Shown: positions 27,174 to 45,153 of the stretch, in pieces
Layout of the letters: each line of letters begins with the position of its first letter
Position numbering within the stretch: the first letter of the stretch is position 1
Source: Singulisphaera sp. PoT
Lineage (GTDB): Bacteria > Planctomycetota > Planctomycetia > Isosphaerales > Isosphaeraceae
Reading direction: 5' to 3'
DNA length: 64,000 nt
Assembly (NCBI RefSeq): GCF_049331405.1
Contig: NZ_CP186274.1
Coordinates: forward strand, 2,704,367 to 2,768,366
Translations under genes and position numbers: made by a program
The notes under the pieces: model-generated
What the model saw: the letters and a program-made list of their open reading frames with translations, nothing else
What the model was told of the DNA's origin: nothing
Database searches by the model: none

Positions 27174-28022
27174 ATGCCGACGTTGCCCCAATCGATGGTC
27201 CTTGGGAGCGGACGGGCGAAGGCGTGGATCCTGTTCGTGGTGGGGGTCCTGTTCACCCTGTCCCTGATGCCGGCACCGGCCGCCCGGGCGCAAGAGCCCG
27301 CCAAGGACGAGGCGGCGAAGGCCGCCGCTGCGCCCGCCCCCGCCGCGGCGGGGAGCACAAGCGACGTCGCCCCCCCCAAGACCAAGTCGATGCTCCGCTG
27401 GGCGCTCGAGGCGTCGGGCCCCATCGGCGTCTTCCTGCTCTGCCTCTCGGTCTACTTCACCTCGGTCGTCATCAAGCTCTTCCTGGAGATGCGGGTGAGC
27501 GAGAACGTCCCGCCTGCGCTCGTCGAGAAGATGGAGGCGGCGATCCGCGACCGCAAGTTCCAGGAGCTCTACGACGCCTGCCGCGACAACGAATCGTTCC
27601 TGGCCAAGGTCGTCCGCACGGGCGTCGCCAACCTGCCCAACGGCCGCCCCGAGGCCAAGGAAGCCATGAACGCCGTGACCGACGAGATCGTCACCGGCAT
27701 GGAATCCAAGATCAGCTACCTCGCCATCATCGGGCAGCTCGGGCCGATGATCGGGCTGGTCGGCACGATCTGGGGCATGATCATGAGCTTCCAGGAAATC
27801 GCCACCGCCGCCGGCTCTCAGCCCAAGCCCGAGAAGGTGGCCGAGGGGATCTCGACGGCCCTCTTCATCACGCTCGAAGGGGTGGCCCTGGCCGTCCCGG
27901 CGATCTTCTTCTTCTCCTTCTTCCGGAACCGGATCGCGACGATCGCCATGGAGGTCACCAAGGTGGCCGACCGCACGATCGCCTCGCTGGTCCAGGCCGC
28001 CAAGCAGTCCAAGACCGTCTGA
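27174..28022 (+). CDS. MotA/TolQ/ExbB-family proton channel (cassette 1)
   Basis: Hallmark region GPMIGLVGTIWGMIMSF…EGISTALFITLEGVALAVPAIFFFSFFRNRI. The start is taken at an internal Met; the ORF extends to 27093. Confidence 0.9.
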   Translation: MPTLPQSMVLGSGRAKAWILFVVGVLFTLSLMPAPAARAQEPAKDEAAKAAAAPAPAAAGSTSDVAPPKTKSMLRWALEASGPIGVFLLCLSVYFTSVVIKLFLEMRVSENVPPALVEKMEAAIRDRKFQELYDACRDNESFLAKVVRTGVANLPNGRPEAKEAMNAVTDEIVTGMESKISYLAIIGQLGPMIGLVGTIWGMIMSFQEIATAAGSQPKPEKVAEGISTALFITLEGVALAVPAIFFFSFFRNRIATIAMEVTKVADRTIASLVQAAKQSKTV

Positions 28023-28076
28023 TCGGACCGGATCCGGACGGGCACAACGAGCAGGAAGTGGAGAGGAGACGCGACC

Positions 28077-28544
28077 ATGTCCGCCTCGATGAGTTCCGAG
28101 ATGTCGGCGGAGCCCAATCTCACCCCCTTGCTGGACGTCGTCTTCCAGTTGATCACGTTCTTCATGCTCGTGATCAACTTCAGCAACGAGAACTACGACC
28201 AGCGCATCAAGCTGCCGGTGGCGGGCTCGGCCCAGCCCACCGAAGATGGGCAGAAGGGGGTCGACGAAGACCGGCTGGTCCTCAACATCAGCAACCAGGG
28301 GCACCTCCTGGTCAACGGCAAGGACCTGCCGTCCGATAAGGCCGGCGCGGAGATCCGGCACCTGGCGGACCTCACCCGCCGCAACCTGGACGCGGCCGGG
28401 GTCAAGAAGTCTGCCGACCTGCCCACGACGATCATCCTCCGGGCCGACAAGGGCACCGAGTTCTCCGACCTGTACGCCCTGATCACGCAGTGCCAGGCCA
28501 ATGGCTTCCGCAAATTCGCCCTCAAGGCGATGAGCGGAGAATAA
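28077..28544 (+). CDS. ExbD/TolR-family protein (cassette 1, type a)
   Basis: N-terminus NLTPLLDVVFQLITFFMLVINF is the ExbD signature TM segment. Confidence 0.9.
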   Translation: MSASMSSEMSAEPNLTPLLDVVFQLITFFMLVINFSNENYDQRIKLPVAGSAQPTEDGQKGVDEDRLVLNISNQGHLLVNGKDLPSDKAGAEIRHLADLTRRNLDAAGVKKSADLPTTIILRADKGTEFSDLYALITQCQANGFRKFALKAMSGE

Positions 28545-28599
28545 TGACGCCGATCGGTTCCTCCCAGCGGATCCATTCAGCTTTGCGGGGGTTATTCTC

Positions 28600-29121
28600 T
28601 TGAGCCAGAATCGTGGCCGGAAGAAGAAAGCTCACACGAGCCTGGAAATCCCCGTCACGCCCATGCTCGACATGGCCTTCCAGTTGCTCACCTTCTTCAT
28701 CCTGACCTATCACCCGATGCCGTCCGAGGTCCAGTTCGTCATGAACCTGATGCCGGCGGCCCCCGCCACCGACATCAACGCCCAGCAGCCCGAGGCGGCC
28801 GAGGCCAATCCCGACCTCCCCGCCTCGCTCAAGACCCTGGAGACCACCTTGCGGGCCGGGGAAGGGGGCTCGCTCGGCCGGATCATCCTCGGTGAGAATG
28901 AGATCCAGGGGGGCCTCGACGCCCTGAAACGCGAGCTCGACGCCAACTTGACCGACCCGACCCTCCCCTTCGAGCAGACCCTGCTGAAGGTCGACCCCGA
29001 GCTCAAGTACGACGCCTTGATGAAGGTGATCGACGTCTTCTCCAAGGCCTTCTCAGACGCGAAGAAGGAGCCCAAGGTCGCCTTCGCCGAGCTGAGCGCC
29101 GAGGAGAAGGCCGCGCAGTGA
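28600..29121 (+). CDS. ExbD/TolR-family protein (cassette 1, type b)
   Basis: Signature segment IPVTPMLDMAFQLLTFFILTYHP. Confidence 0.9.
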   Translation: MSQNRGRKKKAHTSLEIPVTPMLDMAFQLLTFFILTYHPMPSEVQFVMNLMPAAPATDINAQQPEAAEANPDLPASLKTLETTLRAGEGGSLGRIILGENEIQGGLDALKRELDANLTDPTLPFEQTLLKVDPELKYDALMKVIDVFSKAFSDAKKEPKVAFAELSAEEKAAQ

Positions 29122-29200
29122 TCGCCCGGCAACCCTGCGGGATCGGGCCCTCGGGGCGTCGGGCAACGCCAACACGGAGCGTCCGGGGAAGAGGGCCGTC

Positions 29201-30097
29201 ATGAGCCAGTCGAACACGTTCTTCCGCGGGTCGGAGTTCCCGAGGCTCCTCGTCCTGCTCGCGATCCTCGTCGGCGGCTCGGCCCTGCTCTACGCCTACC
29301 TCTACGACCGCGACAAGGGGATCGACGGCGGCCCCGTGGCCACCGTCCCCCTCACGCCGATCGTGCCGGACAGGTCGACCGAGTTCGAGACGGTCGAGGA
29401 TAAGACCTCGATCGGCCTCCGCGACATGGCGGCCTACAAGAAGCTCCTGCAGCAGGCCGAGAAGCGCACGCCGGTCGAGCTCGACAAGGAGAGCCGACGC
29501 GACGTCCTCTCGATCCAGATCTGGGAGCATCCCAACAGCTACCGAGGCGTGCCCATCCACATCCTCGGCACCGTCCTCCGCGTCATGACCTACGAGAGCA
29601 AGCTCGTCCCCTCGGGCCGCCTGTACGAGGCCTGGATGGTGACCTCCGACAGCCAGCGCAACTTCTATGTCTGCGTCTTCGAGGACGCGCCGAAAGGGTT
29701 CCCGGTCGGCGACAACATCTCGGAGCGGGTGGTCTTCAACGGCTACTTCCTCAAGCTGATGAAGTACCAGTCGGGCAAGGACCTGGGCTACTACTCCTCG
29801 CCCGTCCTGATCGGCCGGATCGGCTGGAACGCCCCCACCAAGGCTCCCGCCGACAAAACGCCCGGCCCGGTGAAGTGGATGGCCGTCGCCGTGGCCCTGA
29901 TGTTCGTCCTCTCATTCTTCCGCTGGCTAGGGGGCCTGCGCAAGTCCTTCGCCCCGAGGTCGATCGCTTCGACCCTCCGCGAGCGCCCCACCGAAGAGAT
30001 CTCGCCCGAGGACCTCGCCGCCTGGGTCCAGAGCGTCCCGCAAGAGGAAGCCGAGATCGGCGAGGACGAGCCGCCTCGCCACGACGGCAAGGCCTGA
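29201..30097 (+). CDS. Conserved two-TM protein of unknown function that terminates the ExbB/ExbD cassette (paralog of 42464..43180)
   Basis: N-terminal TM (LLVLLAILVGGSALLYAYLY), periplasmic beta-rich domain with motif YEAWMVTSDSQRNFYVCVFED…FNGYFLKLMKYQSG, and a C-terminal TM. Confidence 0.7.
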   Translation: MSQSNTFFRGSEFPRLLVLLAILVGGSALLYAYLYDRDKGIDGGPVATVPLTPIVPDRSTEFETVEDKTSIGLRDMAAYKKLLQQAEKRTPVELDKESRRDVLSIQIWEHPNSYRGVPIHILGTVLRVMTYESKLVPSGRLYEAWMVTSDSQRNFYVCVFEDAPKGFPVGDNISERVVFNGYFLKLMKYQSGKDLGYYSSPVLIGRIGWNAPTKAPADKTPGPVKWMAVAVALMFVLSFFRWLGGLRKSFAPRSIASTLRERPTEEISPEDLAAWVQSVPQEEAEIGEDEPPRHDGKA

Positions 30098-30448: not shown

Positions 30449-33400
30449 ATGCACCGCGAATATCATCCCGCCGACATGCACCGACTGCGTGCGCACGCCT
30501 TCGAGGGAGAAGGCGGAGGGGAACCCGGCCGTCGCGAGGATCATCGGGGCCTCTATGCCCTGACGACCATCCTGGGGTTGCTGATCGGCGGGGACATCCT
30601 CTTCGCGTACCTCGGCCTGGAGTCCTGGAGGGCCCCGGCGGGCATCTCGCTGGTCAAGGCCGCCGCGATCCTGGGGGGGATCCGCATCGTCTACGGGGCC
30701 CTTGAGGCCCTCGCCCAGAAGCGCATCGGCGCCGATCTCGCGCTGGCCCAGGCGTGCATCGCCGCGTTGGTGATCGGCCAGCCGTTCGTCGCCGCCGAGG
30801 TCGTCTTCATCGCGTTGGTGGGGGAGGTCCTTGAGGCCCTCACCTTCGAGCGGACCCAACGCGCGATCCATCGCCTGCTCGATCAGGCCCCGCGCACGGC
30901 TCGAATACGCCGCGACGGCCGGGAGCACGAGATCGAGGCCCGGTATGTCGCCGAGGGGGACACGGTCATCGTCCGGCCCGGCGAGCGGATCCCGGTGGAC
31001 GGGCCGGTCCTCGTCGGGCGATCCTCCGTGGACCAGGCGGCGCTCACGGGGGAGTCGCACCCGGTCGACAAGGGGGTCGGAGACCCGGCCTTCTCGGGCA
31101 CGATCAACCAGTTCGGCGTCCTGGAGATCCGGGCGGAGAAGGTCGGCCACGAAACGACCCTGGGCCAGGTGTTGCGCCTGGTAGCCGAGGCGCAGCAGCG
31201 CAAGGCTCCGATCCAGAAGACGGCCGACCGGCTCGCCGGCTACTTCCTCCCGGTCGTCGAGAGTGTCGCCGCCCTGACGCTAATTTTCGGGTACCTCCTG
31301 CGCTGGCCCGACGTCTGGATGAGGACGGTCGCCGTGCTGGTGGTGGCCTGCCCGTGTGCCCTGGTCCTGGCCACGCCGGCCGCCATCCTCGCGAGCATGG
31401 CCTGGCTGGCGCGGCATGGCATCCTCATCAAGGGGGGCGAGGCGCTCGAACGGCTGGCCGCCTGCGACACGTTCGCGTTCGACAAGACCGGCACCCTGAC
31501 ACTGGGCCGGCCCGAGGTCACGAGCCTCGTCCCGCTCGACGGCTGGACCGAGGCCGAGATCCTGACCCTCGCCGCGATCGCCGAGTCGTCGAACCCGCAT
31601 CCGCTGGCCGTGGCGATCGTCGAGGAAGCCCGTCGGCGCGGCCTGAAACCGGGGACCGCCACCGAGGTCCTCGCCCAGCCCGGGGCGGGGGTCTCGTCCC
31701 GCTGCCAGCTCGACGCCGGGGGCTCGATCGCGGTCCTCGTGGGCAATCAGCGGCTCTTGAATGAACATGCGATCGAGATTTCAAACGAGGCGGCCGACGC
31801 CCTCCAGGCCCTCGACGCCCGCGGCGATACACCGCTTTTGGTCGCGGTCGAGGGGAAGCTCGCGGGCATCCTCGGGGCGCGCGACCGGATCCGCCCCGAG
31901 GCCCAGGGGGTCGTCTCCGAGCTGAAAGCCCTGGGCTTCCGCGAGGTCGCCATCCTGACCGGCGACCGCGCCGCGGCGGCCGAGGTCGTCGCCAGGAAGA
32001 CGCAGGCCACGAGCGTCGAGGCGGGCCTGCTCCCCGCCGACAAGGCGCACTGGGTCCAGGAACGTCAATCGGCCGGCAAGCGCGTGGCGATGGTCGGGGA
32101 TGGGATCAACGACGCCCCGGCGCTCGCGGGGGCCCACGTCGGGATCGCCCTCGGCGGGATCGGGGCCGACCTCGCGGCCGAGGCCGGCGACTTCGTCGTG
32201 CTCGGCGAACCCCTGGCCTGGCTCCCGGAACTCGTGCAGCTCTCGCGATCGACGGTCGCCGTCATCCGCCAGAACATCCTCATCTTTGCATTCACATTGA
32301 ACGCTGTTGCGATGGGGCTGGCCGCCCTGGGGATCCTGGGGCCGGTGCCGGCGGCGATCCTGCACCAGGCGGGGTCGCTGCTCGTCCTGCTGAACGCCAT
32401 GAGGCTCCTGGCGTTCGGGGAATGGAGACGACTCAGGCCCTTCCATCGGATCAACTCGCTCCTCGAATGGATGGCAAGGATCGACGACCGCCTCGATCCG
32501 ACGGATTACCTGGGTCGCCTGCTCTCGCACTGGCGAGGTTTCGTCGCCCTGATGGTTGCAGTGCTAATCGCCCTGGGCCTGACCTCGGGCTGGACGGCCA
32601 TAGGCCCTGGCGAGGTGGGGCTCGTCCAGCGGCAGGGGCGTTACTTGCGGGCGCTGGAGCCGGGACTCCACCTGCGCTGGCCCCCGCCGTTCGAGCGCGT
32701 GGTCCGGCTCCGGCCCGATCGGCTGAGGAGCCTCGAACTCGGCTTCCGCTCGAACGAAGGAGGCGACTCGGGGCCGGTGCGGTGGGAGTCGCGGCACGAC
32801 CGAGGCGCCGTCGCCCGAGCCGAGGACGAGTCCCTCCTGCTCACGGGCGATGGCCAGCTCGTCGAGCTCGCCGCGACGGCGCAGTACCGGCTCGATACAT
32901 CAAAGCCCGAGTCGCTGCGATCCTACGCCTTCGCCATCGCCGAGCCCGACCGCGCATTGCGTCCTCTCGGCGAATCGGCGATCCGCGCGGTCGTGGGGCG
33001 TCTGACGCTCAACGATTTGCTGACCACGGGGCGACAATCCGCCGAGAAATCGGCCGTGAGCTTGCTCCAGGAGCGGGCGGATCGCTACGGCATGGGGCTG
33101 TTCATCGCGGGGGTCGAATTCCAGGATGTTCATCCCCCGCTGCCGGTGGTGGACGCCTACCGCGACGTCTCCCGGGCCGAGAGCGAACGGGCCAAGCGCG
33201 ACAACGACGGCAAGGCCTACGAGGCCAAGGTCGTCGCCGAGGCCCAAGGCCGTGCCGACGCACTCCGCAACCAGGCCCTCGCCGCGATGTCTTCGCGTGT
33301 GACCCGTGCAGACGCGGAGTCGAGCACCTTCCTCGACCTGCTCTCCGCTCGTTCGACGGCCCCCGCGCTGACCGACCTCCGGCTCTATTGGGAGCGGATC

Positions 33401-33553
33401 GAGGAGTCGCTCGCTGGCAAGTCGAAGGTCGTCACGGAGCCCGACTCCACCGGCCGACGGATCCGGATGATCCCCGACCTCCCCTTCGAGGGCCGGGCCC
33501 TCGCCCCCGAGCCTAATCCCACCCCCGACCCCTCGGCTCGGAGAACGCCATGA
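30449..33553 (+). CDS. P1B-type heavy-metal-translocating P-type ATPase fused in-frame to a C-terminal transmembrane helix plus SPFH/band-7 (HflK-like) domain
   Basis: ATPase motifs: TGES (actuator), CPC in TM6 (VACPCALVLATP), DKTGTLT, GDGINDAPAL, and a TM8 HQAGSLLVLLNAMRLL. After residue ~640 comes a new TM (FVALMVAVLIALGL) and an HflK-type SPFH domain (GPGEVGLVQRQGRYLRALEPGLHLRWPPPFERVV…). There is no N-terminal CxxC HMA domain; the N-terminus is His-rich. Confidence 0.85.
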   Translation: MHREYHPADMHRLRAHAFEGEGGGEPGRREDHRGLYALTTILGLLIGGDILFAYLGLESWRAPAGISLVKAAAILGGIRIVYGALEALAQKRIGADLALAQACIAALVIGQPFVAAEVVFIALVGEVLEALTFERTQRAIHRLLDQAPRTARIRRDGREHEIEARYVAEGDTVIVRPGERIPVDGPVLVGRSSVDQAALTGESHPVDKGVGDPAFSGTINQFGVLEIRAEKVGHETTLGQVLRLVAEAQQRKAPIQKTADRLAGYFLPVVESVAALTLIFGYLLRWPDVWMRTVAVLVVACPCALVLATPAAILASMAWLARHGILIKGGEALERLAACDTFAFDKTGTLTLGRPEVTSLVPLDGWTEAEILTLAAIAESSNPHPLAVAIVEEARRRGLKPGTATEVLAQPGAGVSSRCQLDAGGSIAVLVGNQRLLNEHAIEISNEAADALQALDARGDTPLLVAVEGKLAGILGARDRIRPEAQGVVSELKALGFREVAILTGDRAAAAEVVARKTQATSVEAGLLPADKAHWVQERQSAGKRVAMVGDGINDAPALAGAHVGIALGGIGADLAAEAGDFVVLGEPLAWLPELVQLSRSTVAVIRQNILIFAFTLNAVAMGLAALGILGPVPAAILHQAGSLLVLLNAMRLLAFGEWRRLRPFHRINSLLEWMARIDDRLDPTDYLGRLLSHWRGFVALMVAVLIALGLTSGWTAIGPGEVGLVQRQGRYLRALEPGLHLRWPPPFERVVRLRPDRLRSLELGFRSNEGGDSGPVRWESRHDRGAVARAEDESLLLTGDGQLVELAATAQYRLDTSKPESLRSYAFAIAEPDRALRPLGESAIRAVVGRLTLNDLLTTGRQSAEKSAVSLLQERADRYGMGLFIAGVEFQDVHPPLPVVDAYRDVSRAESERAKRDNDGKAYEAKVVAEAQGRADALRNQALAAMSSRVTRADAESSTFLDLLSARSTAPALTDLRLYWERIEESLAGKSKVVTEPDSTGRRIRMIPDLPFEGRALAPEPNPTPDPSARRTP

Positions 33554-33873
33554 ACGCGATCGCCCCGGCCATCCGCCTGCGATTCACCCTGGCCCAGTTG
33601 CTGTCCCTGGTCATCCTGAGCACCCTCTGCATGGCCCCGCTGATGGCCTCGCTCAAGTCGGGGAAGGGAATGCTCATCCTCGCGGCCGTCACGCTCGACG
33701 TCTTCATCGCCCCGATGATCGAGACGGTCATCGTGATGGCCTATGTCCGCTCGCCCGAGCGTCGCGATTGGATCGTCCGAGCAATCTGGGTGATCCCCGC
33801 GCTGTTCGTGGGGGCCTTCCTGACCGTCCTGGTTCCGATCCTGCTGTTCGTCAACGACCCGTTCTCGCGCTGA
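33550..33873 (+). CDS. Small polytopic membrane protein (107 aa), translationally coupled (ATGA) to the ATPase-SPFH gene
   Basis: Three predicted TM helices. Its start codon overlaps the upstream stop codon. Confidence 0.5.
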   Translation: MNAIAPAIRLRFTLAQLLSLVILSTLCMAPLMASLKSGKGMLILAAVTLDVFIAPMIETVIVMAYVRSPERRDWIVRAIWVIPALFVGAFLTVLVPILLFVNDPFSR

Positions 33874-33927
33874 GGTTTGCCTCGCGAGCCGCAACAGAAT
33901 CTGTCGAGCTTCCCCGAGACCTCCGCA

Positions 33928-34881
33928 ATGACACGCCCCTTCCGCTGGCTGACTGCCCTCATCGTGCTCGGCCTCGTCGCGCTCTTCGGTTTCCGAGGTT
34001 GGGTCATCGTCGACGAGACCGAGTACGCGGTGATCACCGACTTCGGCCGGATCGTGAAGGTCTACGGGGCGGAGCCGGGGTTGCACGCCAAATGGCCCTG
34101 GCAGTCGGTGGAGACCATCGACCGCCGACTCCAGGTGTTCGACCCGCCCCCTCGCGAGATGATCACGGGGGATAAGCGGAACCTCGAGGTCTCCAGCTAC
34201 GTCGTCTGGCGCGTGGCCGACGCCGTCCGCTTCCTACGCTCGGCGGCGACCCTCGAGACGGCGGAAGCCCGCCTCAACGAGCGGGTGACCGCCGCACTGA
34301 GTCATGCGGTAGGGAGCCGCGAACTCCGGACGCTCGCCTCCACCGATCCAAAGGTCTGGAAGCTCGACGCGATCACCGAGGAGGTCCGCACGAGCATCGC
34401 CCCGGGCGCCCGCGAGGAACTCGGGGTCGAGGTCGTCGACGTGAGGCTCCGTCGCTTCAACCATCCGACGGAAGTCCGGCCCGCGATCTTCGAGCTGATC
34501 AGGAGCGAGCGGAAGCAGGTCGCGGCGAGCCTCCGGGCCGAGGGCGAGGCCCGCTACCTCTCCCTCACGAGCCAGGCCGACCGCCAGCGCGACACCATCC
34601 TCGCCGAGGCCGAGGCGGAGGCCGAGCGGATCAGGGGCCAGGCCGAATCCGAGTCGACCCGGATCTACAACAAGGCCCACTCCCAGGACCCGAAGTTCTA
34701 CGAGTTCGTGCGGACGCTCGAGTCGTACCGGGCCTTACTCGACGAAAAGGCTACCGTCGTCCTCTCGTCCGCGAGTCCGCTGCTCCGGCTCCTGACTCAA
34801 GGGCCCTCCGAGGACCTACTCCGGGGTCCCGCCCGCGATAAGGCGGCGGTGACGCCCTCGCCGACTGAGACAAAGCCATGA
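33928..34881 (+). CDS. SPFH/band-7 protein, HflC-like
   Basis: N-terminal TM, then VIVDETEYAVITDFGRIVKVYGAEPGLHAKWPWQSVETIDRRLQVFD (HflC signature) and a coiled-coil tail. A TTG alternative start lies at 33877, directly after the upstream stop. Confidence 0.85.
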   Translation: MTRPFRWLTALIVLGLVALFGFRGWVIVDETEYAVITDFGRIVKVYGAEPGLHAKWPWQSVETIDRRLQVFDPPPREMITGDKRNLEVSSYVVWRVADAVRFLRSAATLETAEARLNERVTAALSHAVGSRELRTLASTDPKVWKLDAITEEVRTSIAPGAREELGVEVVDVRLRRFNHPTEVRPAIFELIRSERKQVAASLRAEGEARYLSLTSQADRQRDTILAEAEAEAERIRGQAESESTRIYNKAHSQDPKFYEFVRTLESYRALLDEKATVVLSSASPLLRLLTQGPSEDLLRGPARDKAAVTPSPTETKP

Positions 34882-35789
34882 GCCGGAACGTATTCCGCTG
34901 GCTCCTCGCGTCATTCGTCCTGGCGGCGATCGCCTACGGGCTGTCGGGGGTCGTCGTGGTCGCCCCCGGCGAGGTGGCCGTGGTCCGCAGGTTCGGCCGG
35001 GCGCTGGCGAGGCCCTTGCCGCCGGGTCCGCACTGGTTGCTCCCCGCGTGGATCGACCGGATCACGCGAGTCCGCACCGACACCGTGCGACGGCTCGAAG
35101 TCGGGCTCGTCGGCACGCCGGGGCCCGACGCCCTCGCCGACGACGGAGAATACATCACCGGCGACCTGAACATGCTGCGTGCGTCTGGCGTCGTGCAGTA
35201 CCGGGTATCCGACCCCATCGCGTTCACCCTCCGAGCCAAAGAGCTCGAACCGATCCTCACGCGGTTGATCGAATCGACCTTGAGCCGATCCCTGGCGCGA
35301 GTGTCCATCGACCTCGCGCTCCGGTCGGGCCGGGCCGAGATCGCCCGCGAGATGGAAGGGGAGCTCTCCCAGGCCGCCGCACGCTATGGCCTGGGGATCT
35401 CGATCCTGGGCGTGAGCCTCACCGAGGCCCGGCCCCCCGTCGAGGTCGCGCCCGACTTCGCCTCGGCCCAAGCCGCCCAGAGCGAACGCGACGGCCGGAT
35501 CCGCGAGGCCCAGACTTACGAGGCGACGGCTTTGACAGGTGCCAGGGCCTCGGCCCTGGCCACGAAGGAGAAGGCCAAATCACGGGCCGACCGCTCGCTC
35601 GCACTGGCGAAGGCCCGCGCAGCCCGTTTCGAGACGCTGCTGGCCGAGGCCTCGGGCTGGAGGCGATTGACGATCCGTCGGCTCTACCTCGACACCTTGC
35701 GAGAGCTCTGGCCGAAGGCCAAGCGCAAGATCATCACGAGCCCCGACGAGCCGGTCGACCTCAGCATCCTCGACGACACTCGTCAGTAA
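34878..35789 (+). CDS. SPFH/band-7 protein, HflK-like; start overlaps the HflC-like stop (ATGA)
   Basis: N-terminal TM, then VVAPGEVAVVRRFGRALARPLPPGPHWLLPAWIDRITRVRTD and a coiled-coil C-terminus. Confidence 0.85.
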   Translation: MSRNVFRWLLASFVLAAIAYGLSGVVVVAPGEVAVVRRFGRALARPLPPGPHWLLPAWIDRITRVRTDTVRRLEVGLVGTPGPDALADDGEYITGDLNMLRASGVVQYRVSDPIAFTLRAKELEPILTRLIESTLSRSLARVSIDLALRSGRAEIAREMEGELSQAAARYGLGISILGVSLTEARPPVEVAPDFASAQAAQSERDGRIREAQTYEATALTGARASALATKEKAKSRADRSLALAKARAARFETLLAEASGWRRLTIRRLYLDTLRELWPKAKRKIITSPDEPVDLSILDDTRQ

Positions 35790-36767: not shown

Positions 36768-38852
36768 TCATACGACCTGCTTGGAGGAGACATCCAGATC
36801 GACCCTGTGGGTTTGCTTCCGCTTCCGCTCGACCCGATCCTCGCGGCACCTCCAGAGCTGCCAGATCCCGATCACGACGCCGAGCGAGAGGGCGGGCCTG
36901 GCGGCCTTCGTCGCCTCGGGGTCCTCGCCGCTCGACGGGGCCGGGGGCGGGACCTCCATCGGCTGATCGGGGGTGGCCGGGAGCGTCCCGGGCGCCTGTC
37001 CCGCCTCGGGGACGACGGGGGCCTTGTCCCGCTTGGAGTCGAGAGTCTGCCCGGCCTTCAGGTCGGCCTTGCCGGGGTCGGCCTTGCCGGGGTCGGCCTT
37101 CGGGGTCGCGGCCTTCGCGTGGGCGTTCGTCCCCGTCGTCGCCTGCGTGCGGTCCGCCTTGCGACGGTTCACGACCGACCGGGCGAGCGGCTGGTCCTCG
37201 GTGGCCGACCGGAGGAAGAGCGTCCCGCGCGGCTCGGGGAGCGACTGCCCGAGCGAGGCGCCCGCGATGGTCGACTCCGACGTGCTGGTCGCCGAGGCGG
37301 TCGTCGTGCTGGTGCTCGTGCTGGAGTTCGTCTCAGTGGTCGAGGTGGGGACCACCGTGAAGACCGCCGTGGACTGGCTCGCGGTCGTGGTGGTGGTTGT
37401 GGTCGTCGTGGTCGTGCTGGTCGAGGTCGAGGTCGAGGTCGGCGTCGTGAACTGGCGGGGGCCGGGGCCGTGAGGCCCGCTATGGGGCGGAGGCTGCGTC
37501 GGGCCGTCGTGCGTCGAGCCCGAGCTGCCAGAGCTACCGGAAGACGTCGTGCCGGTGGTCGTGGTGGTCGTCGTGGTGGCGGAGGCCAGGAACGTGGCAA
37601 GGCTGCTGGCCTTGGGACTGCCAAGGCCGGTGACGAGGTCGTAGCCGCGGCCGGCCTGGTAGTACGCGTTGTAGCCGGTGGTGATGTCGTTGAAGTAGGT
37701 CGACGGGGTCGACTGATACTCGGTCGCGGCCTTGCTGTAGAGCAGGCTCAGCGTGTCCTGCGAGTCGAGCGAGGAGAGCCCGGAGAGGGACCGACCCTGG
37801 TCGGCGATCGCGACGAGGGCCGACCATTGCGGGGCCCCGGCGCTGGTGCCGCCGACCTCGAACCAGCCCGACTGGCCGGACACGCCCAGCGAGTCATACA
37901 CGGCGTAGCCGTTGGTGGCGCTGGCGTCGTACGAGACGTCGGGGGTCGAACGCGCCGGGAGTTGGTTGCCGAAGACCGACGTCTGATAGCTCGGGGTCGA
38001 CTCGTACTGACTGAGCCCGCCGCCGCTGCCTTGCGAGTAGTAGCCGCTCCAGGCGGTCTCACCCTGGTAGGTGCCGGTGGTCGAGGCGGAGAGCGTGGTG
38101 CCGCCGACGCTGACGACGTTGGGCGAGGCCGCGGGCCACTCGGCCCCCGAGATGCCCCCCGAGTCGCCCGAGGAGGCCACGAAGGTGACGCCGGGGACGT
38201 TGAAAAGGGAGTCGAGCGAGGTCTCGCCCAAGAATTCGCCGGTTCCCCAGCTCATCGAGACGACGTTCGCCTGGGTGGAGGCGTACTTCACCGCGGCCGT
38301 CAGGTCGCTCAGGCTGCTGGAATTCGCCTCGACGAGCAGGATCTTGGCGCCAGGGGCCATCGCGTGGGCCCACTCGACGTCGAGCGAGATTTCCAGGGCC
38401 CAGCCGGCGTCGGTGGCCGGGAGCGAGGTCGTGCTGCCGGACTGGTTCACGACGGTCAGGCTGGCGGAGGGGAGGTTGTACTGGCTGTCGAACTTCGCGA
38501 GGTCGGCGGCGATGTTCGGGTCGTTGTAGGCGTCGACGATGGCGATGGTCTCGCCGGTGCCGTCCCCCTTGACCGATTTCGTTCCCGAGTTGAATACGAT
38601 CTGGCTGAAGCCGTATGCTTGGCTCACCTGGCTCGGGGTCAGGCTCCCGGCGACCGGGCTCGAGACGACCGTCGTCCCCGTGGAGCCGAGGCCGCTGCGG
38701 TCGGCCGCGACCGACGGGGCCACCACGATATCGCTGAGGGATGTGAGGAGATGACGAGACTCCATCGACTCGACCCGAGGAACGTTCCCCCTCCGTGTCC
38801 GCGTGCGGACGGAGGCGCACCCGCGCCCTCCCTGCGTCTTCGTTCGGCGCAT
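36768..38852 (-). CDS. Secreted sedolisin/subtilase-type (S8/S53) serine peptidase with a long Thr/Ser-rich linker and a C-terminal membrane anchor
   Basis: N-terminal ESMESRHLLTS motif (as commonly described for planctomycete secreted proteins); catalytic Ser motif GGTSAGAPQWSAL; Asp box IAIVDAYNDP; poly-Thr stretch of >60 residues; C-terminal TM ALSLGVVIGIWQLW. Start approximate; the ORF extends to 39044. Confidence 0.8.
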   Translation of the reverse strand: MRRTKTQGGRGCASVRTRTRRGNVPRVESMESRHLLTSLSDIVVAPSVAADRSGLGSTGTTVVSSPVAGSLTPSQVSQAYGFSQIVFNSGTKSVKGDGTGETIAIVDAYNDPNIAADLAKFDSQYNLPSASLTVVNQSGSTTSLPATDAGWALEISLDVEWAHAMAPGAKILLVEANSSSLSDLTAAVKYASTQANVVSMSWGTGEFLGETSLDSLFNVPGVTFVASSGDSGGISGAEWPAASPNVVSVGGTTLSASTTGTYQGETAWSGYYSQGSGGGLSQYESTPSYQTSVFGNQLPARSTPDVSYDASATNGYAVYDSLGVSGQSGWFEVGGTSAGAPQWSALVAIADQGRSLSGLSSLDSQDTLSLLYSKAATEYQSTPSTYFNDITTGYNAYYQAGRGYDLVTGLGSPKASSLATFLASATTTTTTTTGTTSSGSSGSSGSTHDGPTQPPPHSGPHGPGPRQFTTPTSTSTSTSTTTTTTTTTTTASQSTAVFTVVPTSTTETNSSTSTSTTTASATSTSESTIAGASLGQSLPEPRGTLFLRSATEDQPLARSVVNRRKADRTQATTGTNAHAKAATPKADPGKADPGKADLKAGQTLDSKRDKAPVVPEAGQAPGTLPATPDQPMEVPPPAPSSGEDPEATKAARPALSLGVVIGIWQLWRCREDRVERKRKQTHRVDLDVSSKQVV
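37250..37620 (-). repeat. Low-complexity ACC/ACG/AGC codon repeat encoding the poly-Thr/Ser linker of the peptidase
   Basis: Read directly; it generates spurious ORFs on the opposite strand. Confidence 0.7.
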
Positions 38853-39179
38853 GGCAGACCCTTGTTGTCGTTCTGGTGATGCGTGACTCGGCGGCCGGAC
38901 ACCGCGAATCGCATTCGCGGCTGCTAATCCGACCGAAGGCCAGCCGATCCTCGCGACGGGGGGGGGTCGAGGAAACGGTGCGACATGAATGCACCCATAC
39001 GTCGGGTGCATTCCAAGGTTAGCCCGCTCTCGAAGGTTATTCAAGGAGAAGTTCGGGGTGGCTATGACGAATGCCGTAAAGTTTCCTTAACCCCGAGAGC
39101 GGTCACGAGTGCCGATATAGGCCCCCATCGATGAACGTCCAACGGGACCCTTGACATCCAATTTCGAGGACATGATCTG

Positions 39180-41297: not shown

Positions 41298-42512
41298 ATG
41301 GCTCAGCTTAGCCTTATACTTCCGGTGACCCCGCGTGTATCCCCGGCGGTTGAGCCGATCCGTGATCTCTGCTCGAACCTGAACGCCCTGGGGCATACGG
41401 TCGACTGCATCATCTCCCTCGACCCTGGCGCGGTCTCGGACCCAAAATTTGCGGATACGGGATGGAGCGTCTGCACGGCCAAGAATCCGGGGCTGTCCGC
41501 GGCGGCCGTCGCGGGGCTGGCGCAGGCGCAAGGTGACGTCCTGCTGCTCCTCGATGGCACCAGGAATTACTCGATCGAGGATCTCAAACGGGTCATCGAG
41601 CCGGTCGTCCAGAATGAGGCCGACCTCGTCATCTCGAGCCCGAGGGTCGAAGGCGGGAAGGGGACTCGCTGGCCTCTCCAGAAGCCGGTCGGCACCCTGT
41701 CTCGACGCCTGCTCGGCACGTCTGACCCGCTCTCGGGGCTCGTCGCGATCTCGCCGAAGCTGCTGGCGACCACCGAGTTCTTCCCGATCGGCTCCCTCTT
41801 CGCGCTGGAACTAGCGATCCGGGTCGATGCCCGGCGCCTCGACGTACCGCTCTCGAGGGCGGTCGGCTCCCCGCACCGGCACTGGTCGATCGACGACCTC
41901 CGGTTCGCCAAGCGCTTGTCGGAGGAGCGTTTCGGCAACTTCTCGCGGCTGATCCAGTTCTGCCTCGTGGGCGCCTCGGGGATGATCGTCGACCTGAGCT
42001 GCTACGCCCTCTTCCAGTGGCTCCTGTCGAAGACCTCGCTGGCCTCGGCGCAGATGCCCCTGATCGGCGGGCCGCTGACGCTGGCCGTGGCGGCCGCCCT
42101 GGCGATCGGGATCGCCCTGACCTGGAACTTCTCGCTCAATCGCCGGCTCACATTCAGTTATGCCCGGGGCGAGTCGATCCTCAAGCAATTCTTCGCTTAT
42201 GCGTTGAGCAACGCCCTCGGGATCGTCCTGAGCTACTCGCTGCGGCTGCTCCTGCCCCGGCACGTCGGCTACTTCCAGCGCCACAAGCTCGCCGCCGCGC
42301 TGGTCGGCATCGTCTGCGCGACGGGCATCAGCTTCTCGATGGCCCGCTGGTTCGTCTTCGCCAGGCGGCACAACTCGGACATGCCCGAGGCCACCGGGGT
42401 CGTCGAGGCCAAGGTCGTCGAGGCGGTCCCCGCTTCTCGAGAAGCCGGCGATTCGACTTCCAGTTACACCTCGCCCCGCAACCTGTCGGCCTCGGCGCTC
42501 GAGGCGCTCTGA
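41298..42512 (+). CDS. Family-2 glycosyltransferase (dolichyl/polyprenyl-phosphate sugar synthase-like) fused to a C-terminal GtrA-like 4-TM domain
   Basis: GT-A region (ISLDPG…LLLDGTRNYSIEDL…DLVISSP) followed by GtrA-type helices (FSRLIQFCLVGASGMIVDLSCYALF…). Confidence 0.75.
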   Translation: MAQLSLILPVTPRVSPAVEPIRDLCSNLNALGHTVDCIISLDPGAVSDPKFADTGWSVCTAKNPGLSAAAVAGLAQAQGDVLLLLDGTRNYSIEDLKRVIEPVVQNEADLVISSPRVEGGKGTRWPLQKPVGTLSRRLLGTSDPLSGLVAISPKLLATTEFFPIGSLFALELAIRVDARRLDVPLSRAVGSPHRHWSIDDLRFAKRLSEERFGNFSRLIQFCLVGASGMIVDLSCYALFQWLLSKTSLASAQMPLIGGPLTLAVAAALAIGIALTWNFSLNRRLTFSYARGESILKQFFAYALSNALGIVLSYSLRLLLPRHVGYFQRHKLAAALVGIVCATGISFSMARWFVFARRHNSDMPEATGVVEAKVVEAVPASREAGDSTSSYTSPRNLSASALEAL

Positions 42513-43180
42513 CCCTCGGAGTCCGTCGAGGTCGTTCCCTCCGGCGCGAGGAACTGCAACGGTTCGTCTCGGGTCGGGGGGGCCGGGCGTCGTCGAGGGC
42601 GGCGGGCGTACTGATTGAACATGACGGCGACGAACACGACCAGCGCGCCCAGGGCGATCGCCCAGTCGAGCTGGTTCGATCGTTTCCGGGGAGCCGGCGC
42701 GGCGGGACTTTGCGCGCCGGCCTTCGGCGGTTGGCTCCCCACGATGAGCGGGGCACCCCGCACGGCGTCGCCCCCTTCGTAGCGGACCTTCTTGAGGTAC
42801 ATCCCCGCGAATTGGAGCGTGCCGGTCTTCGGCAGGTCGATTCCCTTCTCATCGGGGAAGACGACGCAGAAGGGGTCTCCCGCCGGCGAAATGAGCCAGG
42901 CCTCGGTCAGCGAGGGGAAGGTGCCGAACGGCGGCTGATGGAAGCGGCGGGCGAGCCGGCCTTCCACCTGCACGAATTTGCCCTCGAATTCAGCGCCGCG
43001 GAACCAGAGGTCGCGGAAGGTGACCCGACTCGGGGGCGTCTTCGGCCGGTTCGACTCCGTGAGTGCCGCGCGGTACGCGGGCAAGTCGACGAGTTCGAGT
43101 TTGGAATCGGCGAGGAGCCGGGCGGCGGCGAGGTTCGAGATCGCCAGGGCGAGGCTCGCGATCGCCTTGCGTCGGGTCAT
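42464..43180 (-). CDS. Conserved two-TM protein ending ExbB/ExbD cassette 2 (paralog of 29201..30097)
   Basis: Shares motif TEAWLISPAGDPFCVVFPDE…LQFAGMYLKKVRYEGG with the cassette-1 protein. N- and C-terminal TM segments. Confidence 0.7.
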   Translation of the reverse strand: MTRRKAIASLALAISNLAAARLLADSKLELVDLPAYRAALTESNRPKTPPSRVTFRDLWFRGAEFEGKFVQVEGRLARRFHQPPFGTFPSLTEAWLISPAGDPFCVVFPDEKGIDLPKTGTLQFAGMYLKKVRYEGGDAVRGAPLIVGSQPPKAGAQSPAAPAPRKRSNQLDWAIALGALVVFVAVMFNQYARRPRRRPAPPTRDEPLQFLAPEGTTSTDSEGQSASSAEADRLRGEV

Positions 43181-43713
43181 GGTATGGTCTTCGTCGCGGG
43201 AGAGTCGGGCTGAAACTCGCTCGAAGGATTGGCGAGGCGGATCGTGGTCGCCCCCGCGCTCGAGATCGCGGCGACGAGGCGCGCGGCCTCTTCATAGCGT
43301 AAGGCGTCGTCGGCCGCGAGCCTGACGCGGAGCGGACGGCCTTCGAGGACCTTGACGTAGCGCTGGAGCCGTTCGCCCAGCGTCGAGACGTCGGGGATGG
43401 CGAGTTCGCCCAGGCGAAGACCCTTCAGGTCGCCGAGCTCATTGGCCTCGGCCCTGACGAAGAGGTCGTTCTCGAGGTCGGTATCCACCCGCCTGGCCGG
43501 GTTGGGCCGGGCCGTCCCCTTCGTCTCGCCCGGCAGGGCCAGGGGTGTGGCGGGGAGGTCGAGGTCGATGTGGGTTTCGAGCGAGGGGGACTGGAAGGTC
43601 AGCACGAAGAAGGCCAGGAGCTGGAAGGCCATGTCGAGCATCGGCGTGACGGGGAACTGGACCCCCTCGTCGGGCTTGTGCCGGACCTTCGGCTTACCAT
43701 GCGGGTAACTCAT
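43177..43713 (-). CDS. ExbD/TolR-family protein (cassette 2, type b)
   Basis: Signature segment FPVTPMLDMAFQLLAFFVLTF. The start is taken at MSYPHGK. Confidence 0.85.
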   Translation of the reverse strand: MSYPHGKPKVRHKPDEGVQFPVTPMLDMAFQLLAFFVLTFQSPSLETHIDLDLPATPLALPGETKGTARPNPARRVDTDLENDLFVRAEANELGDLKGLRLGELAIPDVSTLGERLQRYVKVLEGRPLRVRLAADDALRYEEAARLVAAISSAGATTIRLANPSSEFQPDSPATKTIP

Positions 43714-44180
43714 CGCTCTTGGCCTCGCATGACGACCAGCGTGAAGTGGGCGAATCCGCGTTCCTGGGCGATCGCGAGCGTCCGGCGGACCTTCCCATAA
43801 GGGACGTCGCGGTCGGCCCTGATGATGACGACCGTCTGGATCTCGAGCGTCGGACCTCCGAGCGTCTCCTGGCCGGCGACCCGACGCTTGCCTTGTTCGG
43901 CCCACCAGGCGTCGGCAGCGTCGCCGTCGATCGCGCCCGAGTCGAGCAGGATCTTCCCCTCGCGATCCATGAGCACGACCAGGCGGTCGAGGCTCAGGTC
44001 CTTGCCCGGCAGCGCCGCGGGCGCGATCGGGAGCCGGATGTCCTTCGTCGCCCCCTCGAGCTTCGAGCCGAAGTGGATCAGCATCATGAAGAACGTGATG
44101 AGCTGGAGCACGACGTCGAGCAACGGCGTCAAATTCAGGTTGAAGACCTCTTCGCCACGGTTCCAGGGTTTGCGGGGCAT
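43710..44180 (-). CDS. ExbD/TolR-family protein (cassette 2, type a)
   Basis: Signature segment NLTPLLDVVLQLITFFMMLIHF. The start is taken at MPRKPWN. Confidence 0.85.
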   Translation of the reverse strand: MPRKPWNRGEEVFNLNLTPLLDVVLQLITFFMMLIHFGSKLEGATKDIRLPIAPAALPGKDLSLDRLVVLMDREGKILLDSGAIDGDAADAWWAEQGKRRVAGQETLGGPTLEIQTVVIIRADRDVPYGKVRRTLAIAQERGFAHFTLVVMRGQER

Positions 44181-44310
44181 GGCGAATTCTCGCAGGGCCT
44201 CTCGGCCGTTGTCTTCGGGCGACTTGACGCGTTGAGGGGCGTGGACGACGAGGAACCGGGACAACCTCCGCAACCGCATCTTCAGGGATCGAAGCGGTCC
44301 GCGCGGGCGA

Positions 44311-45153
44311 TCACTTCTCGTAAGGGGGCAGGGCGGTGGTCGGCCTGGGCGCCGCGACGACCGGCGCGGTCGAGGCGGAGGCCAGCGGGTGCAGCGACCG
44401 GATGCCGGGGGCGAACTGCTCCAGGAGCGTCTCTGAGGTCAGGGCCACCTCGAGCGAGATCCGGGCGATCCGGTTCCGGAAGAGCGAGTGGAAGTAGATC
44501 GCGGGGATCGACAGCGCGATCCCTTCCAGCGTGGCGAAGAGTGCCGTCGAGATCCCCTCGGCGAGCTGACTCGCCTGGGGCGAACCGCCGGCCGTCGCGA
44601 TCACGCGAAAGCTCATGATCATGCCATAGACCGTCCCCACCAGCCCGATCATGGGGCCGAGGGTGCCGACCGTCGCCAGGTAGGTCGTCTGGTGCTCGAG
44701 CTCCATGGTGGCGTCTTCGTTGGCCATCTCCATCGAGCGTTGCGCGGGGCCGGCCCCCGACGGCAGCTTGCGGACGCCGGCGCCCAGGACCCTGGCCAGG
44801 AACGACGTGTTCACGACGAGCCGCTGGTAGGCCTCCTCATACAGCTTCTGGCCGAGGAGGTTGCTCAGTTCGTTGAGCAGCGACGCGGGGATGGCCACCG
44901 ATCGCCGGCACTGGAAGGCCATCCAGGCGACGAGGGCGATCAGGTAGAAGGACATCACCGCGATGATGAGGCCCATCGGCCACGAGGCGCGCATCATCCA
45001 GTGGAGGAAGGACTCGGAGCCTTCGGCCTGGGCCGCCGCGGCCGCGGCAGCCTCCGGGGCCTGGGCCGCTTCCTGCGCGAAGGCCGGGGCGAAGACGCCC
45101 AGGCCCATCAAGATGGCGATGGCGATCAGCGTGTGTCGGAAAGTCGAAGACAT
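44311..45153 (-). CDS. MotA/TolQ/ExbB-family proton channel (cassette 2)
   Basis: Signature segment GPMIGLVGTVYGMIMSFRVIA…EGISTALFATLEGIALSIPAIYFHSLFRNRI. Signal-peptide-like N-terminus. Confidence 0.9.
   Translation of the reverse strand: MSSTFRHTLIAIAILMGLGVFAPAFAQEAAQAPEAAAAAAAQAEGSESFLHWMMRASWPMGLIIAVMSFYLIALVAWMAFQCRRSVAIPASLLNELSNLLGQKLYEEAYQRLVVNTSFLARVLGAGVRKLPSGAGPAQRSMEMANEDATMELEHQTTYLATVGTLGPMIGLVGTVYGMIMSFRVIATAGGSPQASQLAEGISTALFATLEGIALSIPAIYFHSLFRNRIARISLEVALTSETLLEQFAPGIRSLHPLASASTAPVVAAPRPTTALPPYEK

What the first reader, a model, noticed from the sequence alone, without database searches (positions are those of the whole stretch)
27174..30097. Duplicated four-gene cassette: ExbB - ExbD(a) - ExbD(b) - conserved two-TM protein (copy 1, + strand)
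The same gene order with clearly paralogous members recurs at 42464..45153 on the opposite strand. Each cassette has one MotA/ExbB channel, two distinct ExbD types and a fourth protein sharing the motif (Y/T)EAW(M/L)…(F/P)(Y/F)(V/C)(C/V)VF(E/P)D…F(N/A)G(Y/M)(F/Y)LK… between an N-terminal and a C-terminal TM. No TonB or TolA homolog is present. The fourth protein is therefore a candidate energy-transducing partner or periplasmic effector of these proton-motive-force motors. Its function appears uncharacterised.
Basis: partly seen in the sequence, partly recalled or inferred. Interest (0 to 1): 0.6.

Follow-up and report, generated by a model that had tools for sequence, protein, structure and literature searches.

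The report
Planctomycete proton motors with OB-fold partner
Two anciently duplicated four-gene operons in a Singulisphaera (Planctomycetota) genome each encode a proton-driven ExbB/ExbD-type membrane motor with two different ExbD subunits and an unannotated membrane-anchored periplasmic OB-fold protein, which looks like a motor accessory subunit and not a TonB/TolA-type force transducer.

Summary
Window = Singulisphaera sp. PoT (Isosphaeraceae). Both cassettes are ExbB–ExbDa–ExbDb–X, and each gene's closest paralogue is its positional counterpart. X1 and X2 are homologous (hhalign probability 99.3%, E 1e-20).

X has no Pfam, NCBIfam, PADLOC or PDB-sequence match. AlphaFold2 models of both show short helices plus a five-stranded OB-fold barrel in the periplasm, then a C-terminal TM helix. 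X1 also has a conserved N-terminal TM helix and a cytoplasmic tail. The family is large: 2283 clusters at E≤1e-10. It includes forms with 3–4 tandem OB modules.

X is the fourth gene after ExbB–ExbD–ExbD in 46/46 X1-type genome loci and in nearly all X2-type and multi-repeat loci.

- In 21 of 25 X2-type loci a fifth gene follows X. It encodes a TonB-like vWA protein (S-x3-H TM helix, Gly-rich linker, MIDAS). This class was described in 2025 as a force transducer. The gene is missing in this genome's clade.
- One metagenomic protein fuses an X domain to ExbDa-type and ExbDb-type periplasmic domains.

X is therefore best read as a dedicated accessory subunit that contacts the ExbD heads. Its physiological role is unknown. 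It is a new variant of a known kind.

The parts
27174..28022 (+). ExbB1: MotA/TolQ/ExbB-type proton-channel subunit. It has an N-terminal signal-peptide-like segment and an Ala/Pro-rich periplasmic stretch. The longest ORF starts at 27093.
   Evidence: Pfam PF01618 E 8.1e-26. NCBIfam TolQ and ExbB equivalog models score far below their cut-offs. 56-83% identical orthologues lie upstream of X1 in 46 loci.
28077..28544 (+). ExbDa1: a-type ExbD/TolR subunit, with the TM aspartate in the motif TPLLDVVFQ.
   Evidence: Pfam PF02472 E 5.7e-22. Closest paralogue is ExbDa2 (34%, E 3e-22).
28600..29121 (+). ExbDb1: divergent b-type ExbD/TolR subunit, with the TM aspartate in TPMLDMAFQ. TTG start.
   Evidence: Pfam PF02472 E 2.2e-10. 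Closest paralogue is ExbDb2 (E 1.3e-10).
29201..30097 (+). X1 (298 aa): conserved cytoplasmic motif FFRGSE(L/F)PRLL, TM1 (about residues 13-36), periplasmic helices plus a five-stranded OB barrel (about 60-210), TM2 (about 223-250), and a cytoplasmic tail with a conserved helix (269-278).
44311..45153 (-). ExbB2: MotA/TolQ/ExbB-type subunit of cassette 2.
   Evidence: Pfam PF01618 E 2.1e-25. 61-80% identical orthologues head the X2-type operons.
43710..44180 (-). ExbDa2: a-type ExbD. The start is refined to MPRKPW; the longest ORF extends to 44279.
   Evidence: Pfam PF02472 E 4.4e-15. Start refined from orthologue alignments and ORF analysis.
43177..43713 (-). ExbDb2: b-type ExbD. The start is refined to MSYPHG, giving a 4-nt ATGA overlap with the ExbDa2 stop; the longest ORF extends to 43905.
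   Evidence: Pfam PF02472 E 1.2e-9. Coordinates. Orthologous loci show the same 4-nt overlaps.
42464..43180 (-). X2 (238 aa): probable signal peptide, helices plus a five-stranded OB barrel, a C-terminal TM helix (about 170-193), and a basic cytoplasmic tail. Its start overlaps the ExbDb2 stop by 4 nt. Its 3' end overlaps the convergent GT2/GtrA gene by 49 nt. No vWA gene follows it.

Best explanation
Each cassette encodes one lineage-specific ExbB/TolQ-type proton-motive-force motor.

Shown:
- Each cassette has one ExbB-like protein, two different ExbD-like proteins that each keep the transmembrane aspartate, and X.
- X is a periplasmic helical plus OB-fold module held in the inner membrane by a C-terminal TM helix.
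- The four genes are inherited as a unit.

Inferred:
- The motor is an ExbB pentamer around an ExbDa/ExbDb heterodimer, as modelled for AglR5-AglQ-AglS of Myxococcus.
- X is a fourth, dedicated subunit. Its TM helix sits beside the ExbB ring and its OB module contacts the periplasmic heads of the ExbD pair.
- In that position X could position, gate or couple the motor to its output.
- In the ancestral five-gene form of cassette 2, the output element is a TonB-like vWA protein encoded directly after X. This genome's clade has lost that gene from the operon. X2 would then work either with a transducer encoded elsewhere or alone.
- Cassette-1-type operons never carry the vWA gene. Their X1 has instead gained a conserved N-terminal TM helix and a cytoplasmic tail, and may combine the adaptor and output roles.

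The cellular process being powered is not known.
For: Motor identity rests on Pfam hits above the gathering score for all six ExbB/ExbD proteins. The TM Asp is visible in all four ExbD sequences.

Heteromeric ExbD:
- The a and b types are mutually distant, yet each is conserved across paralogous cassettes and across all loci.
- The precedent is the AglQS heterodimer inside an AglR pentamer (PMC11761067).

X is tied to the motor:
- ExbB-ExbDa-ExbDb-X1 order in 46/46 genome loci that have upstream DNA.
- The same order for X2-type loci.
- The same order for three multi-repeat X forms.
- 4-nt start/stop overlaps suggest translational coupling.

X contacts the ExbD heads:
- P0273 is a single 428-aa ORF. 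It fuses an X domain (40% identical to X1) to an ExbDa-type periplasmic domain (E 9e-10) and an ExbDb-type periplasmic domain (E 5e-14). It has no TM segment after the signal peptide.
- ExbDb is longer (222-292 aa) in the three loci where X has 3-4 modules.

Fold: both AF2 models show the same helices plus a five-strand barrel. They match OB folds only.

A separate transducer exists:
- A vWA gene follows X2 in 21/25 loci.
- It carries a conserved S-x3-H TM helix and a MIDAS motif.
- It matches the class described in PMC12204202.
Against: - There is no direct evidence of physical interaction. Complex prediction could not be run, and the structure tool returns no interface metrics.
- The Rosetta-stone fusion is a single protein from one metagenomic contig seen in three samples.
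- One locus (L069) has X2-vWA without ExbB/ExbD upstream. X can therefore travel with the vWA gene and apart from the motor.
- In the window neither cassette has a vWA or other transducer. If none is encoded elsewhere, X must itself be the output.
- The multi-repeat X forms without a vWA neighbour also fit an output role better than a pure adaptor role.
- An OB fold does not by itself indicate a binding partner.
Confidence: 0.45

Rival explanations
1. X is itself the force transducer or output element, an analogue of TonB/TolA. Its TM helix is carried by the rotating ExbB ring, and the OB module or modules are pulled or moved in the periplasm to act on a cell-envelope target.
For: - X is the only non-motor protein in both window cassettes and in all 46 X1-type loci. 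No vWA gene lies within 6 kb.
- No TonB, TolA or vWA domain occurs anywhere in the window.
- X1 has an extra N-in TM helix with a conserved juxtamembrane motif.
- Forms with 3-4 tandem OB modules and no vWA neighbour would make an elongated periplasmic structure.
Against: - X1's TM helices have no SHLS/His motif.
- The X1 N-terminal helix is unrelated to the TonB-like helix of the vWA proteins (hhalign probability 0.3%).
- There is no long disordered or Pro-rich spacer.
- Single-module X is compact and tied to the inner membrane at one or both ends, so it is unlikely to reach the outer membrane.
- The shared TM helix has the opposite topology to TonB's.
- X2-type operons usually encode a bona fide TonB-like protein as well.
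Confidence: 0.25
2. X is a membrane-anchored periplasmic ligand-binding or chaperone protein, comparable to CcmE or to the YgiW/BOF and DUF3299 OB proteins. The motor would energise the hand-over or uptake of its cargo.

For: Invariant polar residues (D75, E143, Y189) could form a binding site.
Against: - The matches are generic. Eukaryotic RPA, Stn1 and Ten1 and tRNA-synthetase OB domains score equally well or better.
- Sequence identity is 8-15%.
- No transporter, receptor or cargo-related gene is conserved next to the cassettes.
- The fusion with ExbD periplasmic domains points to protein-protein contact.
Confidence: 0.12
3. X is an operon passenger with no mechanistic link to the motor, for example a membrane protein that is merely co-transcribed.
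For: There are no experimental data. One locus has X without adjacent motor genes.
Against: - The gene order is kept across two ancient paralogous lineages whose X proteins have diverged to 21% identity, and across a third multi-repeat lineage.
- The genes overlap by 4 nt.
- A natural fusion to ExbD domains exists.
Confidence: 0.05

Closest known systems
vWA 'force transducer' operons of the PVC group (tolQ-like + two heterologous tolR-like + TonB-like vWA protein; PMC12204202, Mol Biol Evol 2025)
   Same: Both have one TolQ/ExbB-like gene followed by a pair of different TolR/ExbD-like genes. Orthologues of cassette 2 in other Isosphaeraceae end with a vWA protein that has a TonB-like S-x3-H TM helix, a disordered Gly-rich linker and a vWA domain.
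   Different: - An OB-fold gene (X) lies between the ExbD pair and the vWA gene. The paper text and its searchable supplement do not mention it.
- No TPR gene lies upstream.
- In this window the vWA gene is absent from both cassettes.
- Cassette-1-type operons never have it.
ExbB-ExbD-TonB and TolQ-TolR-TolA systems
   Same: The motor protein families are the same (PF01618, PF02472), with the conserved TM aspartate in the ExbD-like proteins. The operons are compact and include a membrane-anchored periplasmic partner.
   Different: - There are two non-identical ExbD proteins where those systems have a homodimer.
- NCBIfam equivalog scores fall far below the cut-offs.
- The partner has an OB fold, no SHLS motif and no Pro-rich or helical spacer. 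It is anchored by a C-terminal TM helix, or at both ends in X1.
- Planctomycetes are reported to lack Pal and TolA (supplement of PMC12204202).
AglR-AglQ-AglS gliding motor of Myxococcus xanthus
   Same: One TolQ-like protein plus two distinct TolR-like proteins, modelled as a pentamer around a heterodimer (PMC11761067).
   Different: The Agl motor couples to the TonB-like proteins GltG and GltJ and a large Glt complex. No glt-like genes lie near these cassettes. No OB-fold subunit was found in the passages of that paper read here. Singulisphaera is, to my knowledge, non-motile.
Bacterial periplasmic or membrane-anchored OB-fold proteins (CcmE, YgiW/BOF family, DUF3299)
   Different: There is no detectable sequence relationship. 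X has an extra conserved N-terminal helical segment (LRDxAAY / L.DLxxYRAAL), a C-terminal anchor and a link to an ExbB/ExbD motor.

Membership tests
MotA/TolQ/ExbB proton-channel family (PF01618) | Profile match above the Pfam gathering score | tested here: met
   ExbB1 90.7 bits and ExbB2 89.4 bits against a cut-off of 22.9.
ExbD/TolR family (PF02472) | Profile match above the gathering score | tested here: met
   78.6, 41.1, 56.3 and 38.8 bits against a cut-off of 25.4 for ExbDa1, ExbDb1, ExbDa2 and ExbDb2.
ExbD/TolR family (PF02472) | Conserved aspartate in the single TM helix (the proton-binding residue) | tested here: met
   Read directly from the translations: TPLLDVVFQ, TPMLDMAFQ, TPLLDVVLQ and TPMLDMAFQ. 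That this Asp corresponds to ExbD D25 / TolR D23 comes from general knowledge, not from an alignment run here.
Canonical TonB-system ExbB/ExbD or Tol-system TolQ/TolR (NCBIfam equivalogs) | Score above the equivalog cut-off | tested here: not met
   Best hits were TolQ TIGR02796 at 71.7 bits (cut-off 221), ExbB TIGR02797 at 49.6 bits (cut-off 206) and TolR TIGR02801 at 35.9 bits (cut-off 127).
TonB/TolA force transducers (tested for X) | TonB_C or TolA C-terminal domain | tested here: not met
   No Pfam or NCBIfam hit for X1, X2 or any of 46 family members. The predicted fold is an OB barrel.
TonB/TolA force transducers (tested for X) | N-terminal TM helix with the S-x3-H...L...S (SHLS) motor-binding motif | tested here: not met
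   The X1 TM1 sequence (PRLLVLLAILVGGSALLYAYLY) contains no His. hhalign of the X1 N-terminus against the TonB-like helix of the vWA proteins gave probability 0.3%. The X2 N-terminus is not conserved.
TonB/TolA force transducers (tested for X) | Long Pro-rich, disordered or helical periplasm-spanning spacer | tested here: not met
   The AF2 models show a compact folded module between the membrane segments, with only 15-25 low-confidence linker residues.
PVC vWA force-transducer operon (PMC12204202) | tolQ-like gene plus two heterologous tolR-like genes | tested here: met
PVC vWA force-transducer operon (PMC12204202) | TM-anchored vWA protein with a SHLS-type helix encoded downstream | tested here: not met
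   Absent from the window: tblastn best hit E 0.047, no VWA Pfam hit in any gene. Also absent from the closest relative, L055. Present in 21/25 orthologous X2-type loci. Whether it is encoded elsewhere in this genome could not be tested.
PVC vWA force-transducer operon (PMC12204202) | TPR gene upstream of the motor genes | tested here: not met
   The genes upstream are an HtrA-like protease (cassette 1) and an esterase-like gene (cassette 2). The only TPR gene, at 14578-16317, is 11 kb away.
OB-fold superfamily (for the X periplasmic domain) | Five-stranded closed beta-barrel with OB topology | tested here: met
Zorya or other MotAB-like anti-phage systems | Match to PADLOC defence-system models | tested here: not met
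   No hit for any of the eight proteins.

The most novel reading that the evidence does not exclude
The X family is a third kind of motor-driven periplasmic element, alongside the TonB/TolA C-terminal domains and the vWA transducers. In vWA-less cassettes such as the two here, the ExbB-ExbDa-ExbDb motor would act directly on a membrane-tethered OB module. In some planctomycetes that module is a string of 3-4 units able to span their enlarged periplasm. This would give Planctomycetota, which lack Tol-Pal, their own envelope-energising machine.
Probability: 0.2. Interest if true: 0.8.

Novelty: new variant of a known kind. Interest (0 to 1): 0.55.

Why it matters
ExbB/TolQ/MotA-type 5:2 motors are the general way diderm bacteria deliver inner-membrane energy to the periplasm and outer membrane. 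The known output partners are few: TonB, TolA, FliG, GldM, GltG/J, and since 2025 the vWA proteins. Planctomycetes have an unusual envelope and are reported to lack Pal and TolA, and it is not known what their ExbB/ExbD homologues power.

This analysis defines a large protein family with no Pfam model (at least about 2300 clusters at 50% identity). The family is locked to a heteromeric ExbB-ExbDa-ExbDb motor. It comes in three architectures. It is linked by operon structure to the recently proposed vWA transducers and by a natural gene fusion to the ExbD periplasmic domains. Together these give a concrete, testable four- or five-component complex for structural and genetic work.

Tried and rejected
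- Sequence annotation of X failed. Pfam, NCBIfam and PADLOC on X1 and X2, Pfam on all 46 members of alignment A3, and a profile search of PDB sequences found nothing significant. The weak hits (DUF6480, PycTM, K2P channels) are noise from the TM segment.
- I tested whether the X1 N-terminal TM helix derives from the TonB-like helix of the vWA proteins. hhalign probability was 0.3%, so this was rejected.
- A vWA, TonB or TolA gene elsewhere in the window was ruled out by tblastn and by Pfam scans of all other genes.
- Flanking genes are housekeeping genes (AlaRS, HtrA-like protease, P-type ATPase/Band 7, MnmA, GT2/GtrA). They are only partly syntenic within the family and give no functional clue.
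- The fold search against afdb50 could not be done because the library was unavailable.
A1 and A2 were used instead.
- Apparent ExbDb-X2 'fusions' among the database proteins (P0217, P0243) contain out-of-frame junk between the two parts. I judge them ORF-calling artefacts caused by the ATGA overlap.
- The promoter/terminator scans gave nothing decisive.
- I considered predicting a complex from a linker-joined chain but dropped the idea.
- Literature searches found no paper describing an OB-fold partner of ExbB/ExbD.
Full report
**Source and observation.** X1 and X2 are identical to hypothetical proteins of Singulisphaera sp. PoT (Isosphaeraceae, Planctomycetota). The window is 66% GC. ORF listing and Pfam confirm two four-gene cassettes at the reported coordinates.
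- Cassette 1 (+): ExbB1 27174-28022, ExbDa1 28077-28544, ExbDb1 28600-29121, X1 29201-30097.
- Cassette 2 (-): ExbB2 44311-45153, ExbDa2 43710-44180, ExbDb2 43177-43713, X2 42464-43180.
- In cassette 2 the ExbDa2/ExbDb2 and ExbDb2/X2 junctions are 4-nt ATGA overlaps.
- All eight genes have GC3 of 0.86-0.95.

**The duplication is real.** Paralogy follows gene position. ExbB1/ExbB2 share 44% identity (E 1.6e-54). ExbDa1/ExbDa2 share 34% (E 3e-22). ExbDb1/ExbDb2 give E 1.3e-10. Cross a/b comparisons reach only about E 1e-5. This is an old duplication of the whole cassette and not a chance resemblance.

**The fourth proteins are homologous.** X1 and X2 align at 21% identity. Family alignments A1 (33 X1-like sequences) and A2 (23 X2-like sequences) match by hhalign at 99.3% probability, E 1.3e-20.

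**What X is.**
- No Pfam, NCBIfam, PADLOC or PDB-sequence relative was found for X1, X2 or any of 46 family members.
- The AlphaFold2 model of X1 has pLDDT 80.5, above 90 for residues 50-210. It shows TM1 (13-36), a conserved extended segment, short helices, a five-stranded barrel (118-208), TM2 (223-250) and a short cytoplasmic helix.
- The X2 model (pLDDT 83.3) has the same helices and barrel, followed by a single C-terminal TM helix.
- X is therefore not a TonB or TolA C-terminal domain.
- The X2 N-terminal hydrophobic segment is not conserved and looks like a signal peptide (inference). The X1 N-terminus carries a conserved FFRGSE(L/F)PRLL motif and an invariant Gly in the helix, so it is probably a real anchor.

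**Family size and architectures.**
- A profile of both subfamilies, searched against 1.84 billion cluster representatives, finds 3837 clusters at E≤1e-3 and 2283 at E≤1e-10.
- Every hit that carries an organism name is from Isosphaeraceae: Singulisphaera, Paludisphaera, Aquisphaera and Tundrisphaera.
- Some metagenomic members are 700-814 aa long, with 3-4 tandem helix+OB modules and one C-terminal TM helix. Their contigs carry typical planctomycete genes (DUF1501, PSCyt2/PSD1).

**Genomic context.**
- In 46 of 46 X1-type genome loci with upstream sequence, the order is ExbB-ExbDa-ExbDb-X1. None has a vWA gene within 6 kb. Other neighbours are housekeeping genes and only partly conserved.
- Three multi-repeat X genes also follow MotA_ExbB-ExbD-ExbD. 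Their b-type ExbD is longer, at 222-292 aa.
- X2-type loci differ. In 21 of 25 loci with downstream sequence, X is followed directly by a gene for a roughly 340-aa protein, often with 4-nt overlaps. This protein has a conserved N-terminal PLTDPR(S/A)L..S-x3-H TM helix, a Gly-rich disordered linker and a vWA domain with a DxSxS MIDAS motif.
- This is the 'vWA force transducer' class reported in 2025 for PVC bacteria, downstream of a tolQ-like gene and two heterologous tolR-like genes (PMC12204202).
- That paper and its searchable supplement do not mention an OB-fold gene. They record no Pal or TolA for a planctomycete representative.
- The exceptions without the vWA gene are the window, its closest relatives (L055=L058 and L057, with ExbB2 80% identical) and two short contigs. 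In the window and in L055, X2 is followed by a convergent GT2/GtrA gene that overlaps it by 49 nt. The Singulisphaera PoT clade has therefore lost the fifth gene from cassette 2.
- One locus (L069) has X2-vWA without motor genes upstream.

**A natural fusion.** P0273 (L051, one 428-aa ORF in a single frame) consists of a signal peptide, an X domain (40% identical to X1 residues 55-218), an ExbDa-type periplasmic domain (31% identity, E 9e-10) and an ExbDb-type periplasmic domain (40% identity, E 5e-14). It has no TM helices for the ExbD parts. This Rosetta-stone arrangement suggests the three periplasmic modules work as one assembly. It is a single case.

**Mechanism.**
- Shown: the components, their domain content, the predicted topology and fold of X, the strict synteny, the presence of a TonB-like vWA gene in orthologous operons, and its absence here.
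- Inferred: an ExbB pentamer surrounds an ExbDa/ExbDb heterodimer, by analogy with the modelled AglR5QS motor (PMC11761067).
- Inferred: X is a dedicated fourth subunit, anchored beside the ring, whose OB module binds the ExbD heads. It would act as an adaptor or regulator between the motor and its output.
- Inferred: the output is the vWA protein in the five-gene form. In vWA-less cassettes such as the two here, X may itself be the output.
- I put 0.45 on the accessory-subunit model. I put 0.25 on X being the transducer itself. That reading is favoured by the vWA-less cassettes and the multi-repeat forms. It is disfavoured by the lack of an SHLS/His motif, by hhalign probability 0.3% between the X1 helix and the vWA helix, by the compact tethered structure and by the inverted topology of the shared TM helix.
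- I put 0.12 on a ligand-binding or chaperone role, and 0.05 on X being an unrelated passenger.

**Comparison with known systems and novelty.**
- The motor proteins belong to PF01618 and PF02472, but they fall far below the NCBIfam equivalog cut-offs for ExbB, TolQ, ExbD and TolR.
- X fails every tested defining feature of TonB/TolA.
- The closest described system is the PVC tolQ-tolR-tolR-vWA operon. The cassettes here differ from it by having the OB-fold gene, by lacking the vWA gene and by lacking the TPR gene.
- I class this as a new variant of a known kind, with an uncharacterised but large partner family. The physiological role remains open, and the window offers no clue to it.

Noticed in passing
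L051:8001-9287 (protein P0273): A single 428-aa ORF fuses a signal peptide, an X-type helix+OB domain, an ExbDa-type periplasmic domain and an ExbDb-type periplasmic domain. It has no TM helices for the ExbD parts and no ExbB gene nearby. It could be a soluble copy of the motor's periplasmic assembly.
   Followed up: partly
L050:8648-9694, L052:7687-8745, L053:7627-8658, L056:7732-8751 and 17 further loci: A TonB-like vWA gene lies directly after X2-type genes. It has a conserved PLTDPRSL..S-x3-H TM helix, a Gly-rich linker and a DCSGS MIDAS motif. It is absent from the window and its closest relatives, which implies recent loss or relocation in the Singulisphaera PoT clade.
   Followed up: yes
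L069:1712-3666: An X2-type gene and a vWA gene occur as a pair, with a divergently transcribed histidine-kinase gene upstream where the ExbB/ExbD genes would be. X can therefore travel with the vWA gene and apart from the motor.
   Followed up: partly
P0160, P0172, P0225, P0187, P0269 (metagenome proteins): These X-family proteins are 700-814 aa long, with 3-4 tandem helix+OB modules and one C-terminal TM helix. In the three loci examined (P0160, P0172, P0225) they are still the fourth gene after ExbB-ExbD-ExbD. The b-type ExbD in those three loci is unusually long (222-292 aa).
   Followed up: partly
window 30449-35789: A 1034-aa P-type (E1-E2) ATPase is fused at its C-terminus to an SPFH/Band 7 domain. 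It is followed by a 107-aa ORF and two further Band 7 genes (33877-34881, 34878-35789). The ATPase-Band 7 gene lies downstream of X1 in 19 related loci.
   Followed up: partly
window 42464-42512: The 3' ends of X2 and of the convergent GT2/GtrA glycosyltransferase gene (41163-42512) overlap by 49 nt. The same overlap is present in the closest relative (L055).
   Followed up: partly
window 36768-39044: Long ORFs on both strands (758 aa on the - strand, 690 aa on the + strand) have no Pfam match. The corresponding gene in L055 is called as a 663-aa protein, also without a domain.
   Followed up: no
window 13046-13471: An IS200-like Y1 transposase gene (PF01797, E 2e-35), followed by a 131-aa ORF with no Pfam match.
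   Followed up: no
window 7377-9855: A cytochrome b gene fused to a C-terminal c-type cytochrome domain (619 aa) lies next to a Rieske protein gene. This is an unusual fused bc-complex arrangement.
   Followed up: no
window 27174-27420 and 44990-45153: Both ExbB paralogues begin with a signal-peptide-like segment followed by an Ala/Pro/Glu-rich low-complexity stretch before the first TM helix of the MotA_ExbB core.
   Followed up: no
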